From the sequence record OR670062.1: DNA of 37,572 nt, one strand, 5' to 3'. Of this stretch, positions 16,831 through 22,573 are shown one piece after another. This stretch comes from Escherichia phage SKA5. The first letter of the stretch is position 1. Each line of letters begins with the position of its first letter. A program made the position numbers and the translations under genes. The notes under the pieces are model-generated. The model saw only the letters and a list, made by a program, of their open reading frames with translations. It searched no databases and was not told where the DNA came from.

Positions 16831-17250
16831 TTACTCATCATCAATAGATGATACGCAATATTTATTTTTAAATTTAAGGTTCTTTGGCGTAACTTCATCA
16901 GAGATATCAAAACCGTCCAGAATTCTATTGAATGTAGCTTCTGGCATATCATCATGAACAGAAATCTCACCCGATCGCTGCTTTCTAACCATGTTATCCA
17001 CTCGCCAAATTATAGCTTCAGCGTAAACAACATAACTTGGATGCTTGATAAAGCGATGATCACCAGAATTCAAGACGCAAGACGGATCGTGGGGGACACC
17101 ATCCTTGATACTAGAAATATTAACAACTAAAACACAATAACAATCGTTAACGGGGTAATAAACAGGATCATTACAAATCACATGAAGATGATTGCATGGC
17201 CCAGTTGGGGCAAGCACAGTTCCTTTCCTGTATGGCTGATAATCCGTCAT
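16831..17250 (-). CDS. hypothetical protein; candidate toxin/effector partner of the Panacea-domain protein
   Basis: 139 aa, Cys/His-containing, AT-rich codon usage. Its start overlaps the stop of the upstream Panacea-like gene (ATGA). No family recognised. Confidence 0.5.
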   Translation of the reverse strand: MTDYQPYRKGTVLAPTGPCNHLHVICNDPVYYPVNDCYCVLVVNISSIKDGVPHDPSCVLNSGDHRFIKHPSYVVYAEAIIWRVDNMVRKQRSGEISVHDDMPEATFNRILDGFDISDEVTPKNLKFKNKYCVSSIDDE

Positions 17251-17819
17251 GATAATTGCAAAGAAAATTCCTTAAGTTTCTGAGATTCTTCCATTTTGCC
17301 AATTATGCGATTAGCCTCATCCTCGCTTTTACCCTCACTGATCAGCATTTCTTTCAGGTCTATAGGCTTACGAGAATTGCCAGGATCGTGCCACTCTGGA
17401 CAAACGCTTTCTAAATGCGTCATATTTGCGAGATCAAATCGGTTCATATGCCCATACCGAGAATAGATTTCATCTAAAATCCGGATATCTGCACGACTCA
17501 ATTCATCAAAGACCTCGTCTGCATCCATTTCCCTCGGATCTGAACGCAACGATACATTATGCCCGTTCGTCTCTATCAAGTTGTACCAGTAGTCACCAAT
17601 GCCTTCAGCCTTACCGCGAATCAAGTTCAGCGTATTCGACATGACTGGTCCAAATTTCATAGAGTAAAGGCTATCTTCGCCGATCATCCTGCCATGCTTC
17701 AAAATCGACTGGCGGTTAGACAGATAGAGCAACTTCATCAATTTCAGATATGCCATGCGCCCACCTCGCTTAAGAAGTAGGTATGCAGCCATTTGAGCTA
17801 CTTTTTCTTCGCAAAACAT
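17247..17819 (-). CDS. Panacea (DUF4065, GepA/SocA-like) domain protein; candidate antitoxin
   Basis: 190 aa with motifs I associate with DUF4065 (AAYLL, KLMKLLYLSNRQS, FGPV, ILDEIYSRYG...LANMTHLESVCPEW). First gene of an AT-rich minus-strand unit. Confidence 0.6.
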   Translation of the reverse strand: MFCEEKVAQMAAYLLLKRGGRMAYLKLMKLLYLSNRQSILKHGRMIGEDSLYSMKFGPVMSNTLNLIRGKAEGIGDYWYNLIETNGHNVSLRSDPREMDADEVFDELSRADIRILDEIYSRYGHMNRFDLANMTHLESVCPEWHDPGNSRKPIDLKEMLISEGKSEDEANRIIGKMEESQKLKEFSLQLS

Positions 17820-18011
17820 ATAAGAAACCTCAAAGATAGTGAACTTTATAATTATTCTCGATACTTCATGGGTTGCTTCATCACCAACACGAGCTTCTTA
17901 TGGTGTGCCCACTTGGGCCTAAGCAACCAGTTACCTCGTTTGTCAAGTTTATAGCTGGCTTTAACCATGGTCAATTGAAGTGATGAGCAAATGATGCTTT
18001 CTAAGAATAAC

Positions 18012-18246
18012 AGGTTCCCAATAGGATCCCACAAAGTGTATAACTAGTTGTTTTTCAAAAACGGTACATCCTATCGAGCATAGGAGCAATGCTAAACCGA
18101 GAATTCCAGTAAACACCAGTTTTTTCAGGCATCACGCTGGTTTGATTAATTTTTTGTGTTTCATGATTATCGTGCATTTTTGAACATTTCAGGCTATTTT
18201 TCTCGCATTAGGTTCCCGCACAGGTTCCCACGTTTTATGGGAACCC
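18012..18246. repeat. clustered (A/G)GGTTCCC(A/G) repeats; candidate integrase arm-type sites / attP region
   Basis: Copies at 18012-18020, 18023-18031 (one mismatch), 18210-18218 and 18222-18230, with an inverted copy at 18238-18246, in the AT-rich non-coding stretch just upstream of the integrase gene. Confidence 0.35.
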
Positions 18247-18265
18247 GAAATAACGAGGTCGTGTA

Positions 18266-19363
18266 ATGGCGTACTATAACATAGAGAAACGACTAAAATC
18301 CGATGGCACACCACGCTATCGCTGTAATGTGATTATCAAAGAAAAAGGTGTTATCACTTACAGGGAAAGCAAAACATTCCCTAAACATGCTCATGCCAAA
18401 ACATGGGGCACACAGAAAGTGATGGAATTAGATCTATATGGCATTCCATCATCAAATGCAGTTGACGGACTTACAGTCCGTGACTTACTACACAAATATT
18501 TAAATGACCCAAATGCCGGAGGTAAAGCAGGCCGTACTAAAAGATATGTGCTGGAACTGCTTATGGATAGTGACATCTCCGCGATCAAACTATCTGAACT
18601 GACAGAAAATGACGTAATTGAACATTGCAGGCTAAGAAACAACGCTGGCGCAGGTCCAGCAACAGTCAGCCACGATGTTAGTTATCTTGGCAGTGTTCTG
18701 GATGCGGCCAAACCTGTATACGGAATTAATTACACATCAAACCCGGCGAAAAGTGCTCGTCCATATCTACTTAAACTTGGTTTGATTGGTAAATCAAACC
18801 GTCGTAATCGTAGACCAGCATCTGATGAACTGGACATGCTCATTGAAGGCCTTCAACAACGATCTACTCATAAATGCTCAAAAATTCCGTTCGTTGATAT
18901 CCTCAAATTTTCTGTGTGGTCCTGTATGCGAATCGGAGAAGTATGCCGGTTACGATGGGAAGATCTCGACCAGGAACAAAAATCTATACTCGTAAGAGAC
19001 AGGAAAGATCCACGCAAAAAGGAAGGCAACCACATGAAAGTAGCCTTGCTTGGGGAAGCCTGGGATATCGTCCAACGACAGCCCAAAAAATCGGAATTCA
19101 TTTTTCCATATAACAGCACTTCTATTACTGCGGGATTTCAGAGGGTAAGAAGCAAATTAGGTATTAAGGATCTGCGATACCATGATTTGCGTAGAGAAGG
19201 GGCAAGTCGCTTATTTGAGGCTGGTTTTAGTATTGAGGAAGTAGCCCAGGTTACAGGGCATCGTTCATTAAACGTGCTATGGCAGGTATATACCGAACTG
19301 TATCCGAAATCTTTACATAATCGTTTTGAAGAGCTCCAAAGGAGCAGAAATAAGACCCCTTGA
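18266..19363 (+). CDS. tyrosine-type site-specific integrase
   Basis: 365 aa with C-terminal catalytic-domain motifs (HDLRREGASRLF, GHRSLNVLWQVY). Confidence 0.9.
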   Translation: MAYYNIEKRLKSDGTPRYRCNVIIKEKGVITYRESKTFPKHAHAKTWGTQKVMELDLYGIPSSNAVDGLTVRDLLHKYLNDPNAGGKAGRTKRYVLELLMDSDISAIKLSELTENDVIEHCRLRNNAGAGPATVSHDVSYLGSVLDAAKPVYGINYTSNPAKSARPYLLKLGLIGKSNRRNRRPASDELDMLIEGLQQRSTHKCSKIPFVDILKFSVWSCMRIGEVCRLRWEDLDQEQKSILVRDRKDPRKKEGNHMKVALLGEAWDIVQRQPKKSEFIFPYNSTSITAGFQRVRSKLGIKDLRYHDLRREGASRLFEAGFSIEEVAQVTGHRSLNVLWQVYTELYPKSLHNRFEELQRSRNKTP

Positions 19364-19409
19364 CACTGTTTATCCATACAGTTAAAAATAATACTGTATA
19401 CAAACACAG
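19360..19409 (+). promoter_or_regulatory. SOS-regulated promoter region with two LexA boxes
   Basis: TTGACA at 19360-19365, then two CTGT-N8-ACAG boxes (CTGTTTATCCATACAG at 19366-19381; CTGTATACAAACACAG at 19394-19409), directly upstream of the dinI-like ATG. Confidence 0.6.
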
Positions 19410-19424
19410 TATAGAGGGACTTTT

Positions 19425-19673
19425 ATGCGTATTGAAATCTGCATAGCCAAAGAAAAAATGACTAAAATGCCAACCGGTGCTGTGGATGCGTTAAAGGAAG
19501 AATTAACCCGACGCATCAGTAAACGTTATGACGATGTAGAGGTGATCGTAAAAGCCACCAGCAACGATGGCCTTTCTGTTACACGCACCGCAGATAAGGA
19601 TTCTGCAAAAACTTTTGTTCAGGAGACTCTGAAAGATACCTGGGAATCTGCTGACGAGTGGTTTGTTCACTAA
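19425..19673 (+). CDS. DinI-family protein (SOS-inducible RecA modulator homolog)
   Basis: 82 aa; [10 protein letters not shown]-terminus and [16 protein letters not shown]-terminus closely resemble DinI. Confidence 0.85.
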
Positions 19674-19816: not shown

Positions 19817-20380
19817 TTATTTCGTTTGAATGCCAGTAACAGGAAATCGTTTATATAGGGTTGATAGCCCAACGTTATAGATACGTGCAACATAACGCCG
19901 TGATTTCCCTGCCGCTATGAGCGCTCCCATCTGTTGCCACTGCTCGTCGCTAAACTTCGGTCTACGCCCACCAATCCGGCCTTTGGATCTGGCAATAGCC
20001 AAACCAGCTAAAGTTCGCTCGCTATTCAAATCAGATTCATACTGCGCAGCAGAAAGAATATTACGGAAATTATAGCGACCACTTGCTGTTTTCAGGTCTA
20101 CGCCATCTGTAATACTCCGAAAATTAACACCTTTTTCGTGCAGATTTTGAAACATCAATAGCGCATGCAGCACATTTCTCCCTATCCGATCTAACTTCCA
20201 GACAATCAACTCATCTCCACTTTTCATCACCGTAATTAATTCCTTTAACACAGGGCGATTAGCTGTTCTGCCACTGGCATATTCTTCATAAATTCGCTCA
20301 CAGCCAGCTGACTCAAGTGCAAGACGTTGCAACTCTGTATCCTGATGATTTGTTGATACACGAACATACCCGTAAATCAT
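19817..20380 (-). CDS. serine DNA invertase (Pin/Gin/Hin family)
   Basis: 187 aa; N-terminal resolvase catalytic domain (GYVRVSTNHQ with the Ser nucleophile) and a C-terminal HTH. Adjacent to the invertible tail-fibre segment. Confidence 0.9.
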   Translation of the reverse strand: MIYGYVRVSTNHQDTELQRLALESAGCERIYEEYASGRTANRPVLKELITVMKSGDELIVWKLDRIGRNVLHALLMFQNLHEKGVNFRSITDGVDLKTASGRYNFRNILSAAQYESDLNSERTLAGLAIARSKGRIGGRRPKFSDEQWQQMGALIAAGKSRRYVARIYNVGLSTLYKRFPVTGIQTK

Positions 20381-20439
20381 GAGTACTTCTCCTGTTGTAA
20401 AAACAGGAGAAGAGGCGAAATATCACCTGATTCAGAAAA

Positions 20440-20465
20440 ATATTTGAAAGGTTGGTTTGGGAGAA
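20440..20465. repeat. inversion crossover site (left), hix/gix-like
   Basis: ATATTTGAAAGGTTGGTTTGGGAGAA; inverted copy of the core TTCTCCCAAACCAA found at 22271-22296. Confidence 0.6.
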
Positions 20466-20918
20466 GGTTCGGCATTACCCGTTGGTGTGCCTGTCCCGTG
20501 GCCTTCCGCCACTCCGCCAACAGGCTGGCTAAAATGCAATGGTGCGGCTTTTTCTGCTGAAGAATACCCGGAACTGGCAAAGGTTTATCCGACAAATAAA
20601 TTGCCTGATTTACGCGGTGAATTTATTCGTGGCTGGGATGACGGACGTGGAGTGGATGCCGGGCGACAATTATTATCTTCACAGGGGGATGCAATAAGAA
20701 ATATTGAGGGATTCGCAGATGGCGGGATCGGTATGTCTTTTGATGCAATCAGAGGGGCTTTTTACGATGCAGGAACACGATCAGCGAGAATGCCGAATAA
20801 CACAACTACTATAGACAAAACCGATGACCTTGGATTCGACGCCTCTCGTGTCGTGCCAACAGCTAATGAAAACCGTCCACGTAACATCGCCTTTAATTAT
20901 ATTGTGAGGGCTGCATAA
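20457..20918 (+). CDS. alternative tail-fibre C-terminal segment (silent orientation)
   Basis: Open frame starts exactly at the crossover site (LGEGSALPVG) with a stop codon just upstream. It would fuse to the constant fibre N-terminus after inversion. Confidence 0.6.
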   Translation: MGEGSALPVGVPVPWPSATPPTGWLKCNGAAFSAEEYPELAKVYPTNKLPDLRGEFIRGWDDGRGVDAGRQLLSSQGDAIRNIEGFADGGIGMSFDAIRGAFYDAGTRSARMPNNTTTIDKTDDLGFDASRVVPTANENRPRNIAFNYIVRAA

Positions 20919-21511
20919 TGAAACCTGTTTTTGATGAAAATGGGCTGGCTACAGTGCCGGGTGATATGCGTTGTTTTTATTATGATGCAGTAACGTCTGA
21001 ATATACGGGCTGGTCTGATGAATATATTAATACTGGCGTAAGTATGCCCGCCTGTTCCACTGGTATTGACCCGGGCGAATACATTCCGGGGAAAGTGGCA
21101 GTATTTACGGGTAAGGGATGGAGCCATGAAGAAGACCACCGCAATGAGACTGTTTACTCAATCGAAAATGGCGCAGCTGTTACAGTGGATTATATCGGTG
21201 CCATCAAAGACGGTTATGTCACGCTTTCACCGTTAACGCCATACGATAAATGGGATGGTGAGAAATGGGTGACAGATACTGAGGCACAGCATAGTGCCGC
21301 ACTAGACGCGGCAGAAGCACAGCGCCAGTCGCTGATTGATGCTGCAATGGCTTCCATCAGTCTGATTCAACTGAAATTACAGGCCGGGCGGAAGCTGACG
21401 CAGGCAGAAACAACCCGACTTAACGCCGTGCTGGATTATATTGACGCGGTGACGGTAACAGATACCAGCACTGCGCCGGATGTCATCTGGCCTGAACTGC
21501 CGGAGGCGTAG
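20918..21511 (+). CDS. tail fibre assembly protein (partner of the alternative fibre)
   Basis: 197 aa; conserved Tfa C-terminus (LDYIDAVTVTDTSTAPDVIWPELP). Confidence 0.75.
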   Translation: MKPVFDENGLATVPGDMRCFYYDAVTSEYTGWSDEYINTGVSMPACSTGIDPGEYIPGKVAVFTGKGWSHEEDHRNETVYSIENGAAVTVDYIGAIKDGYVTLSPLTPYDKWDGEKWVTDTEAQHSAALDAAEAQRQSLIDAAMASISLIQLKLQAGRKLTQAETTRLNAVLDYIDAVTVTDTSTAPDVIWPELPEA

Positions 21512-21923
21512 GCCATTCAATATCTGGCGCACCGGAAGTATCGACCAGTTCCAGTGTGTCCAGATAATCCAGCCACAAATTATATTGCGCCAGTTCCTCA
21601 CCTTTCAGGCGACCAATCGCCGCTTTACCAGGCCATTGCTTACTGTTTATGTATTCGTTGACCTGATTAATCAATTGCTGCTTTTCCAGTTCGGCTGCGG
21701 CAATTTGTTCCTCATGAGTTGGCGGTGGAATATCAATCCATGCAGGCATTCCGTCGATGACACCTCTGTATTTTCCTTCTGGTGCTTCCTTCATAAATTC
21801 GGCGGCAACAGTGTCGTCAATTTCGATTCCATCATCGGGCCATTCGCCGGATTCCTGATAAGCGATTTTAAGCTCCACAGGGAAAAACGCATTTTTATCG
21901 GCACTGAAAATATATTTCTGCAT
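21483..21923 (-). CDS. tail fibre assembly protein
   Basis: 146 aa with the same Tfa C-terminal motif (LDYLDTLELVDTSGAPDIEWPTPP). Convergent with the other Tfa gene and overlapping it by 29 nt. Confidence 0.75.
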   Translation of the reverse strand: MQKYIFSADKNAFFPVELKIAYQESGEWPDDGIEIDDTVAAEFMKEAPEGKYRGVIDGMPAWIDIPPPTHEEQIAAAELEKQQLINQVNEYINSKQWPGKAAIGRLKGEELAQYNLWLDYLDTLELVDTSGAPDIEWPTPPAVQAR

Positions 21924-21925
21924 TT

Positions 21926-22573
21926 CTACCGTCCTATCGAAATATAACTGAATCTGTATTGCTGTGAGATATCACTGGTTGCCACACGCCACGCTGAATT
22001 ACTGATATGTTCAAAATTTACAGACAAAACCTGCGGGGCAGGATGCGACGGATCTGACTGAACGGCATCAGACATAACACTGACTGAAACCATCGGCTGA
22101 TTAGGGAATGGTATAGGGAAGTGTCCACTGATAAAGCGGGTCGTGTTTCCTGAAAAAGTGCCAAACTGAACAATATATCCACCTGGTAGCCTGAACCATC
22201 CCGAACCAGAAGCGAATGCTCCCATATCCGGTATCTGATTATCTCCTGTGCCCACATCCCTTTTCGCCGCTTCTCCCAAACCAAGGTTTTCGAGAGCCGT
22301 TTGCACAGTGCCATCCGATTTGATATCGCCAAACGGATTCTTGCGGCTTAACAGCAGCGCACGAAGTGCGGTAAGCAGCTGGTCGTGCCGCGCCTTCTCG
22401 AGACTGGCACCGGATGCCTCTACAACGCTGCAAAGCTCCTCCTGCAACATGTCAAAGTAGTCATCATCCAGATCGGTGGCAGGCGTGCCAGTCTGGGGGT
22501 TACCACGGGTAAAACCGTTCTTACCCGCGCCGAACTTATCCTTCTGCGCGGTTTTCGTGTCTATACGATGCAT
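21926..22573 (-). CDS. tail fibre protein (constant N-terminus plus currently expressed variable C-terminus)
   Basis: 215 aa, last gene of the tail operon. The inversion crossover site lies inside the gene at 22271-22296. Confidence 0.7.
22271..22296. repeat. inversion crossover site (right), hix/gix-like
   Basis: TTCTCCCAAACCAAGGTTTTCGAGAG inside the tail-fibre gene; resembles the hixL pattern. Confidence 0.6.

What the first reader, a model, noticed from the sequence alone, without database searches (positions are those of the whole stretch)
17830..18265. Candidate attP: two clusters of (A/G)GGTTCCC(A/G) arm-type repeats upstream of the integrase gene
Direct copies at 18012, 18023 (one mismatch), 18210 and 18222, plus an inverted copy at 18238, form two clusters about 190 bp apart in an AT-rich non-coding region ending at the integrase start. 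This matches the P-arm / core / P'-arm layout of tyrosine-integrase attP sites, so the core would lie around 18030-18210. I could not recognise a tRNA or host-gene fragment there.
Basis: partly seen in the sequence, partly recalled or inferred. Interest (0 to 1): 0.45.

Follow-up and report, generated by a model that had tools for sequence, protein, structure and literature searches.

The report
Phage attachment site inside dusA
This is the phage's chromosomal attachment site (attP) for inserting into the host dusA gene, and the five short repeats are most likely the integrase's "arm" docking sites; it is a well-understood kind of element, though these docking sites had not been described for this integrase family in the papers I could search.

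Summary
Window 18010-18248 is the attP of a dusA-specific tyrosine integrase (int, 18266-19363). Comparing attP, attB and both prophage junctions places strand exchange in TCGAGCAT (18074-18081), between the two repeat clusters as predicted. The integration site, the core and the PrtN-type excision factor are already published for this family. The papers I read do not mention arm-type sites.

The five AGGTTCCC-type words sit at fixed offsets from the core: -62, -51, +136, +148 and an inverted copy at +165. Eight diverged elements from three virus types keep the direct-repeat offsets but use a different word each. Across 76 loci the word follows the integrase N-terminal domain and not the rest of the protein. 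Natural N-domain swaps change the word.

The best explanation is lambda-like arm-type integrase-binding sites (confidence about 0.8). The main rival is binding by the excision factor RdfN. 17830-18009 is not part of attP. Verdict: a new member of a known kind, of modest interest.

The parts
18012..18020 (+). P1 arm-type word AGGTTCCCA (unit ACAGGTTCCCA from 18010); starts at -62 from the first core base
   Evidence: It marks the left edge of homology with mEp460 and with other intact attP copies. The equivalent site lies at -61 to -63 in 8 elements.
18023..18031 (+). P2 arm-type word AGGaTCCCA (AGGcTCCCA in most relatives); starts at -51, 11 bp after P1
18041..18053 (-). IHF-like site AAACAACTAGTTA (one mismatch to WATCARNNNNTTR) between P2 and the core
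   Evidence: It is the only hit with at most 1 mismatch in the window's attP. Perfect matches lie at the identical offset (-33, minus strand) in YeP2 and EKP1. It is not found in the marine elements. Function is inferred.
18069..18085 (.). Core: inverted core-type half-sites TCCTA (18069-18073) and TAGGA (18081-18085) around the crossover segment TCGAGCAT (18074-18081)
   Evidence: In alignment A1 of attP, attB and both junctions, parentage switches inside TCGAGCAT. About 70 junctions all have phage DNA starting right after ...GCAT. The published core and attB TCCAGTCGAGCATGGGAGC are in PMC6328086.
18074..18177 (-). Replacement dusA 5' end (dusA'): ATG at 18177 reading down to the core; in the free phage it is a 40-codon ORF, 18055-18177
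   Evidence: The dusA CDS of lysogen STEC1575 starts in phage DNA. 78/96 nt are identical to K-12 dusA, then 8/8 in the core, then 11/34; the fusion is in frame. The displaced native 5' fragment is annotated at the far junction.
18210..18218 (+). P'1 arm-type word AGGTTCCCG; starts at +136
   Evidence: 0 of 9 positions vary among 33 distinct close relatives.
18222..18230 (+). P'2 arm-type word AGGTTCCCA; starts at +148, 12 bp after P'1
18238..18246 (-). P'3 inverted arm-type word GGGTTCCCA; forms a palindrome with P'2 around a 7-bp spacer, 20 bp before the int ATG
   Evidence: The spacer varies at 6 of 7 positions while the arms are conserved. It is present in enterobacterial lambdoid relatives and absent in several other lineages.
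18266..19363 (+). int, a dusA-specific tyrosine integrase (365 aa). Residues 1-58 (18266-18439) form a predicted 3-strand plus helix N-terminal domain, followed by a flexible linker, the core-binding domain and the catalytic domain
   Evidence: Pfam PF00589. 99.5% aa identity to the 1720a-02 Int. Structure models. Shine-Dalgarno GAGG at 18255-18258 (read).
16262..16570 (+). rdfN-like gene (PrtN domain, PF11112), the probable excision directionality factor; the true start is probably the internal ATG near 16289
   Evidence: The homologue abuts attP in YeP2 and EKP1. RdfN was shown to be the RDF of dusA elements in PMC8409611.

Best explanation
Window 18010-18248 is the attP of a temperate lambdoid phage whose tyrosine integrase (18266-19363) inserts the phage into the 5' end of the host dusA gene.

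Shown: strand exchange takes place within TCGAGCAT (18074-18081), which is flanked by short inverted core-type half-sites. The phage carries its own copy of the first 104 nt of dusA on the minus strand (18177 to 18074), so insertion rebuilds an in-frame dusA.

Inferred: the five AGGTTCCC-type words are arm-type sites bound by the small N-terminal domain of Int. Two are direct copies on the short P arm (-62, -51). Two direct copies and one inverted copy lie on the long P' arm (+136, +148, +165). The central and C-terminal domains of the same Int molecules bind and cut the core. An IHF-like site at -33 would bend the short arm back onto the core. The result would be a lambda-type intasome about 240 bp long.

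More speculative: because P'1-P'3 lie 20-56 bp upstream of the int start codon and upstream of the divergent dusA' start, Int bound there may also regulate int and/or dusA'. The PrtN-type protein encoded at 16262-16570 would act as the excision factor.
For: Integration site and core:
- Hundreds of E. coli chromosomes carry window 18074-18300 joined to dusA, and window 17830-18073 joined to a displaced dusA 5' fragment.
- The four-way alignment switches parentage inside TCGAGCAT. About 70 junctions agree.
- PMC6328086 reports the same core, 100 bp into dusA, and Int-dependent excision for phage 1720a-02.
- dusA' is 78/96 nt identical to K-12 dusA and fuses in frame.

Arm sites:
- YeP2 and EKP1 (Int 67-68% identical) have the same 2 + core + 2 + 1 inverted layout but use CAGCACCCC and AGTACACC.
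- Eight elements from lambdoid, P2-like and PM2-like viruses keep P1 at -61 to -63, P2 at -50 to -52, P'1 at +135 to +137 and P'2 at +146 to +148, each with its own word.
- Across 76 loci, word distance correlates with N-domain distance (r = 0.58). The partial correlation controlling for the rest of Int is 0.54, and 0 of 2000 permutations reach it. The reverse partial correlation is -0.13.
- Rosenbergiella L098 and L099 have about 96% identical Int from roughly residue 75 onward, but about 60% identical N-domains and different words (AGGACACC versus AGCACCCC).
- Among 33 distinct close relatives, P'1, P'2 and P'3 vary at 0/9, 1/9 and 2/9 positions, while the 7-bp spacer varies at 6/7.
- An IHF-like site lies at the same offset in the three enterobacterial elements.
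Against: - There are no binding data. Int binding to the words is inferred.
- One Vibrio element (VibA5) has a P arm with a different word from its P' arm and Int type. Strict matching of both arms is therefore either not required, or that element is defective.
- The within-window repeat statistic alone is only moderately unusual.
- No sigma-70 consensus promoter for int was found on the plus strand, so the regulatory part is speculative.
Confidence: 0.8

Rival explanations
1. The words are binding sites for the PrtN-type recombination directionality factor RdfN (16262-16570), not for Int. RdfN bound on both arms would shape attL and attR for excision.
For: RdfN-family genes are present in every element that keeps the layout. 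RdfN divergence parallels Int N-domain divergence (r = 0.85). In lambdoid relatives rdfN sits directly next to the P arm, so it could be swapped together with attP. Known RDFs often bind direct repeats (general knowledge).
Against: Vibrio F4/H01 and E11 have 81-83% identical RdfN, with the central segment nearly unchanged, but 66% identical Int N-domains and different words. Over 8 elements the word correlates better with the Int N-domain (0.38) than with RdfN (0.18), though this is weak. Int has an extra N-terminal DNA-binding-type module that would otherwise have no repeated target in attP. According to PMC8409611, a mini-element carrying only attP and int sits integrated at dusA, and RdfN is needed only for excision. 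The sites lie on both arms at lambda-like arm positions, whereas RDF sites are usually confined to one arm (general knowledge).
Confidence: 0.1
2. The words are operator or promoter elements only. They would control int and/or the phage-borne dusA' promoter, through Int autoregulation or another regulator, and would not be needed for recombination.
For: P'1-P'3 lie 20-56 bp upstream of the int ATG and upstream of the divergent dusA' start. P'2/P'3 form an operator-like palindrome. PMC8409611 reports a promoter for int and a new promoter for dusA in this interval of a related element.
Against: P1 and P2 lie on the other side of the core, more than 230 bp from int, and are moved to the far prophage end on integration. 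Even so, they are kept at -62/-51 from the core in eight elements. Homology between mosaic phages begins exactly at P1. The inverted P'3 copy is missing in many lineages, while the four direct copies persist.
Confidence: 0.06
3. The repeats are a chance cluster with no function.
For: 7 of 171 real tiles of the window reach the same repeat statistic.
Against: The layout and offsets are conserved with changing words in dozens of loci. Conservation is site-specific, with a variable spacer between sites.
Confidence: 0.01

Closest known systems
attP of dusA-specific integrases: PhiStx2dact/1720a-02 (PMC6328086) and the DAI family (PMC4482086)
   Same: Int is 99.5% identical in amino acids to that of 1720a-02. 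The core (TCGAGCA[T]) is the same, insertion is about 100 bp into dusA, and the phage supplies the dusA 5' end. Int-dependent excision was shown experimentally for 1720a-02. The family is defined by a 21-bp semi-conserved att sequence in the dusA 5' end.
   Different: Nothing substantive in the element itself. Those papers define only the core and junction sequence and do not mention arm sites (0 occurrences of 'arm'). The PhiStx2dact attP qPCR primers in fact anneal to the P1/P2 and P'2/P'3 words. In this window a two-gene Panacea-domain module is inserted between rdfN and attP.
Bacteriophage lambda attP (P1, P2 / C-O-C' / P'1-P'3 with IHF, Xis and Fis sites); details from my own knowledge of the lambda literature
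   Same: About 240 bp long. Five arm-type words, split 2 + 3 on either side of a core with inverted core-type sites and a 7-bp overlap. Adjacent words are about one helical turn apart. There is an IHF-type site between the short arm and the core. Int is built from an N-terminal arm-binding domain, a core-binding domain and a catalytic domain.
   Different: int is transcribed away from attP, with the three-site arm directly upstream of its start codon. The long arm is mostly coding sequence for a host-gene 5' end. One site is inverted. The target is inside a protein-coding gene. The RDF is PrtN-type, not lambda Xis. There is no detectable sequence similarity of the N-domain to the lambda arm-binding Pfam families.
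IMEVchUSA3 and other dusA-specific integrative elements with RdfN (PMC8409611)
   Same: Same integrase family and target. A PrtN-domain RDF is encoded across attP from int. The element supplies a promoter and a restored reading frame for dusA.
   Different: Those are plasmid-mobilisable islands with AcaCD-controlled rdfN. Here the element is a lambdoid phage. Arm sites were not analysed there.
AP2/ERF-type three-strand plus helix DNA-binding domains; the Tn916 and lambda Int N-domains are of this class (my own knowledge)
   Different: The scores are no better than those of unrelated folds. Membership is not established.

Membership tests
dusA-specific integrase (DAI) attachment site | Tyrosine integrase found next to the 5' end of dusA in lysogens | tested here: met
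   742 of 5426 E. coli genomes hold the region. The int-side junction is annotated 'dusA | tyrosine-type recombinase'. Gene order in STEC1575 is pspG-dusA-int.
dusA-specific integrase (DAI) attachment site | Crossover within the semi-conserved att sequence in the dusA 5' end | tested here: met
   attP CCTATCGAGCATAGGAGC versus attB CCAGTCGAGCATTGGTGC. The junctions switch inside TCGAGCAT. This matches the published attB and core.
dusA-specific integrase (DAI) attachment site | The element supplies a replacement dusA 5' end that keeps the gene in frame | tested here: met
   the fusion reads MHDNHETQKINQTSVMPEKTGVYWNSRFSIAPMLD|WTDRH..., and the displaced native fragment is at the other junction.
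dusA-specific integrase (DAI) attachment site | PrtN-domain recombination directionality factor (RdfN) encoded by the element | tested here: met
   Window 16262-16570 matches PF11112 with E = 4e-23. Homologues are present in all compared elements.
dusA-specific integrase (DAI) attachment site | Int-dependent integration and excision | not testable with these tools
   Shown experimentally for phage 1720a-02, whose Int is 99.5% identical (PMC6328086).
Lambda-type (heterobivalent) integrase attP with arm-type sites | Repeated words on both arms, different from the core-type sites, at fixed distances from the core | tested here: met
   The arm word is AGGTTCCC, against core half-sites TCCTA/TAGGA. 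The offsets are conserved in 8 elements.
Lambda-type (heterobivalent) integrase attP with arm-type sites | Int has a separate N-terminal arm-binding domain joined by a flexible linker | tested here: inconclusive
Lambda-type (heterobivalent) integrase attP with arm-type sites | Arm-word specificity resides in the N-terminal domain | tested here: met
   By covariation only: partial Mantel r = 0.54 (p about 5e-4) against -0.13 for the rest of Int, plus the natural swap L098/L099. A confound with RdfN is not fully removed.
Lambda-type (heterobivalent) integrase attP with arm-type sites | Physical binding of Int to the arm words, and their requirement for recombination | not testable with these tools
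   Needs EMSA or footprinting and mutant att assays.
Lambda-type (heterobivalent) integrase attP with arm-type sites | Sites for a DNA-bending host factor (IHF) between arm and core | tested here: inconclusive
   There is one IHF-like site (1 mismatch) at -33. Perfect sites lie at the same offset in YeP2 and EKP1, and none in the marine elements.

The most novel reading that the evidence does not exclude
The dusA-integrase family may be a natural library of mutually orthogonal arm-word and N-domain specificities (at least ten word classes were seen), all mounted on one rigid attP geometry and one shared chromosomal target. The cassette of P' arm plus N-domain appears to be exchanged by recombination (L098/L099, VibA5). 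This diversification could be driven by competition between elements that use the same attB, so that co-resident or tandem elements cannot assemble each other's intasomes. The system would also offer a readable recognition code for this beta-sheet DNA-binding domain. Because the P' sites also sit over the int and dusA' control region, Int occupancy might couple expression of a host tRNA-modification gene to the state of the prophage.
Probability: 0.25. Interest if true: 0.55.

Novelty: new member of a known kind. Interest (0 to 1): 0.35.

Why it matters
The finding defines the complete functional attP (about 240 bp, 18010-18248) of a widespread family of E. coli and Shiga-toxin phages that insert into dusA. 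Only the core sequence had been described before. The set of matched word and N-domain pairs on a fixed scaffold is a ready-made system for testing how arm-binding domains read DNA, and for building orthogonal integrase/att pairs. It also shows that the att boundaries of these prophages can be predicted from sequence alone. It does not change how this type of recombination is understood.

Tried and rejected
1. I first suspected the perfect palindrome at 18222-18246 (7-bp spacer) was the crossover site. Junction mapping puts the exchange at 18074-18081, so I rejected this.
2. I argued that the P2-like and PM2-like elements use different excisionases, so the words must follow Int. This was wrong: all of them have PF11112 RdfN-type proteins. 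I withdrew the argument and replaced it with the weaker Vibrio F4/H01 versus E11 comparison.
4. Pfam on the N-terminal 145 residues found no family. Arm-DNA-bind_4 appears only below threshold, and only in some homologues.
5. Mutual information between motif positions and N-domain residues was dominated by singletons and was uninformative.
6. The promoter scan found no sigma-70 consensus for int on the plus strand and no terminator. The promoters of int and dusA' remain unlocated.
7. The tRNA scan of 17000-19500 found none, so this is not a tRNA-targeting att site.
8. The IMG/VR scan with the alignment returned only relatives 98-100% identical. It was useful for micro-variation but not for divergence.
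9. M16-3 has a pseudogenised int and an uncertain right end, so its P-arm offsets did not fit and I did not use them.

Full report
**Observation**

Four of the five exact matches in the 37.5-kb window lie in this 235-bp stretch. The unit extends to ACAGGTTCCCA. The last two copies form a perfect palindrome around a 7-bp spacer.

A motif-agnostic shuffle test gives 3 of 500 shuffles with a family this large, but 7 of 171 real tiles of the window reach the same value. The sequence on its own is therefore suggestive, not conclusive.

**What the locus is**

The ORF at 18266-19363 is a tyrosine recombinase (PF00589). Its left neighbour on the minus strand is a SocA/Panacea-domain protein. dinI and a serine invertase follow on the right.

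Several prophage-derived phage records end at window position 18074-18077. In E. coli chromosomes, window 18074-18300 is joined to dusA (tRNA-dihydrouridine synthase A). Window 17830-18073 is joined to a short displaced dusA 5' fragment.

I aligned attP (window), attB (K-12 dusA), the int-side junction (STEC1575) and the far junction (strain I2). Parentage switches within TCGAGCAT, 18074-18081, with mismatches between attP and attB on both sides. About 70 further junctions agree. One is a secondary insertion outside dusA that still joins phage DNA right after ...GCAT. The segment is flanked by inverted half-sites, TCCTA (18069-18073) and TAGGA (18081-18085).

On the minus strand, an ATG at 18177 opens a reading frame that is 78/96 nt identical to the start of K-12 dusA, 8/8 in the core, and unrelated beyond it. 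Fusing it to the host gene at the core keeps the frame. In lysogens the annotated dusA CDS indeed starts in phage DNA. No tRNA is present.

All of this is already published:
- Farrugia et al. defined the dusA-specific integrases and a 21-bp semi-conserved att (PMC4482086).
- The PhiStx2dact/1720a-02 study mapped a 7-base core 100 bp into dusA, described the phage-borne dusA', and showed Int-dependent excision (PMC6328086). That phage's Int is 99.5% identical to this one.
- PMC8409611 showed that the PrtN-domain protein RdfN is the excision factor. The window encodes one at 16262-16570.

**The repeats**

None of those three papers mentions arm-type sites (0 hits for 'arm' in each). A search for 'arm-type' together with 'dusA' returned only generic statements.

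Comparative evidence for function is strong:
- Yersinia phage YeP2 and phage EKP1 (Int 67-68% identical) have the same layout: two direct copies 11 bp apart, the core, two direct copies 12 bp apart, and one inverted copy. Their words are CAGCACCCC and AGTACACC.
- I reconstructed attP from prophage-derived records of P2-like (ACA2, C5a) and PM2-like (Vibrio PE) elements. Measured from the first core base, P1 starts at -61 to -63, P2 at -50 to -52, P'1 at +135 to +137 and P'2 at +146 to +148. The window values are -62, -51, +136, +148, and +165 for the inverted copy. Each element has its own word.
- In 76 loci from different species, a pair of direct repeats 11-12 bp apart lies 35-69 bp upstream of int, and its word falls into classes that follow the N-terminal sequence of Int.
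- Word distance correlates with N-domain distance (r = 0.58) more than with the core-binding domain (0.32) or the catalytic domain (0.24). The partial correlation with the N-domain, controlling for the rest of Int, is 0.54 (0 of 2000 permutations reach it). The reverse partial correlation is -0.13.
- Two Rosenbergiella integrases are about 96% identical from roughly residue 75 onward but only about 60% identical in the N-domain, and their words differ (AGGACACC versus AGCACCCC). The DNA identity profile puts the breakpoint about 250-300 nt into int.
- Among 33 distinct close relatives of the window sequence, P'1, P'2 and P'3 vary at 0/9, 1/9 and 2/9 positions. The 7-bp spacer between P'2 and P'3 varies at 6/7.
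- Homology between mosaic phages that share this integration module begins exactly at P1. This sets the left edge of attP at about 18010 and excludes 17830-18009, which holds a minus-strand promoter-like site for the Panacea module.

**The protein**

An AlphaFold model of Int (pLDDT 83) has three strands (residues 2-38) and a helix (41-58). A low-confidence linker (about 59-66) follows, then a helical core-binding domain and the catalytic domain. The N-domain modelled alone has pLDDT 88.

**Mechanism proposed**

This is a lambda-type intasome (inferred).
- Int protomers bind the core half-sites through their core-binding and catalytic domains and exchange strands within 18074-18081 (crossover position shown).
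- Their N-domains would bridge to P1/P2 on the short arm and to P'1-P'3 on the long arm.
- An IHF-like site would bend the short arm. It is at -33 on the minus strand (18041-18053): one mismatch here, and perfect matches at the same offset in YeP2 and EKP1.
- RdfN would redirect the reaction towards excision.
- The P' sites lie 20-56 bp upstream of the int ATG and upstream of the divergent dusA' start, so they may also serve as an autoregulatory operator. This is speculative, since no promoter could be located.

**Rivals and weaknesses**

The main rival is that RdfN, not Int, reads the words. I first argued against this on the wrong premise that the RDFs differ between elements. In fact all of them are PF11112 proteins, and RdfN divergence parallels N-domain divergence (r = 0.85).

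The arguments that remain for Int are these:
- Vibrio elements with 81-83% identical RdfN but 66% identical N-domains have different words.
- Int has an otherwise target-less N-terminal DNA-binding-type module.
- A mini-element with only attP and int sits integrated at dusA, and needs RdfN only for excision (PMC8409611).
- The sites are positioned on both arms, as in lambda.

One element, VibA5, is a hybrid. Its P' arm and Int N-domain are of one type and its P arm, rdfN and body of another. Either some cross-recognition is tolerated or that element is crippled. This remains unexplained.

A purely regulatory role is unlikely. P1 and P2 are held at fixed distances from the core, yet they are carried to the far end of the prophage.

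**Verdict**

Refinements:
- The core is at 18074-18081.
- A host-gene fragment (the dusA 5' end) is present.
- The first 180 bp of the interval are not att.

The attP, its target and its RDF are already known for this family. The arm-type sites, their rigid geometry and their covariation with the Int N-domain appear to be undescribed in the literature I could search, but they are what one would expect of a lambda-like integrase. I rate it a new member of a known kind, interest about 0.35.

Noticed in passing
window 19817-22289: A serine invertase gene (19817-20380, minus strand; Resolvase + HTH_7) lies next to a segment of about 1.8 kb bounded by 20-nt inverted repeats (20447-20466 / 22270-22289, AAAGGTTGGTTTGGGAGAAG, 90% complementary). 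The segment contains tail-collar and tail-fibre C-terminal genes and tail-fibre assembly genes in both orientations. It looks like a Gin/Cin/Pin-type invertible host-range switch.
   Followed up: partly
window 16831-17819 (minus strand): A two-gene module (a 139-aa protein with no family hit, plus a 190-aa SocA/Panacea antitoxin-domain protein) is inserted between rdfN and attP. It is absent from mEp460, YeP2 and EKP1, where rdfN abuts attP. A sigma-70-like promoter on the minus strand at 17974-17946 could drive it. There is no PADLOC hit.
   Followed up: partly
L176 (Vibrio phage 10N.286.55.A5_PE002, PQ189363.1), joined ends: This is a hybrid element. Its P' arm and Int N-domain are identical to the E11-type (word AGTACCCC). 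Its P arm, rdfN and body are F4-type (word AGTACG[GT]A). The two arms therefore carry different words.
   Followed up: partly
L172, L175, L176, L177 (Vibrio PE elements), P' arm between the dusA' start and P'1: A LexA-box-like palindrome (for example TACTGTATATGCATACAGCA) sits in the P' arm upstream of int. This suggests SOS control of int or dusA' in these elements. No such box occurs in the window (read by eye).
   Followed up: no
One IMG/VR locus among L007-L086 (int-side junction): One prophage has its int-side junction in a non-dusA sequence (GCGCCCAGCCACGCAT|AGGAGC...). This is a secondary-site insertion that still joins right after GCAT. About 14 lysogens, and one intact attP, carry TCAAGCAT in place of TCGAGCAT in the core.
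   Followed up: no
L170 (Klebsiella phage Kp4882-1) and L145/L147 (Raoultella): Relatives with Int 52-54% identical keep a 2 + 2 arrangement of AG[GCA]ACCCCA words, but no dusA-type core was found nearby. This sub-lineage may have been retargeted to another attB while keeping the arm architecture.
   Followed up: no
L005 (E. coli GPEC1352 chromosome, NZ_CM142780.1 4548313-4548783): An intact attP-like junction (P arm, core, dusA', P' arm, int) lies inside a chromosome, between two sets of phage genes. This indicates tandem dusA prophages.
   Followed up: no
L090 (Escherichia sp. MOD1-EC7003), equivalent of window 18226 and 18242: P'2 and P'3 carry the same T-to-C change at mirror-image positions (AGGTCCCCA cgtttta TGGGGACCC), which keeps the palindrome perfect. 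P'1 keeps T at that position.
   Followed up: no
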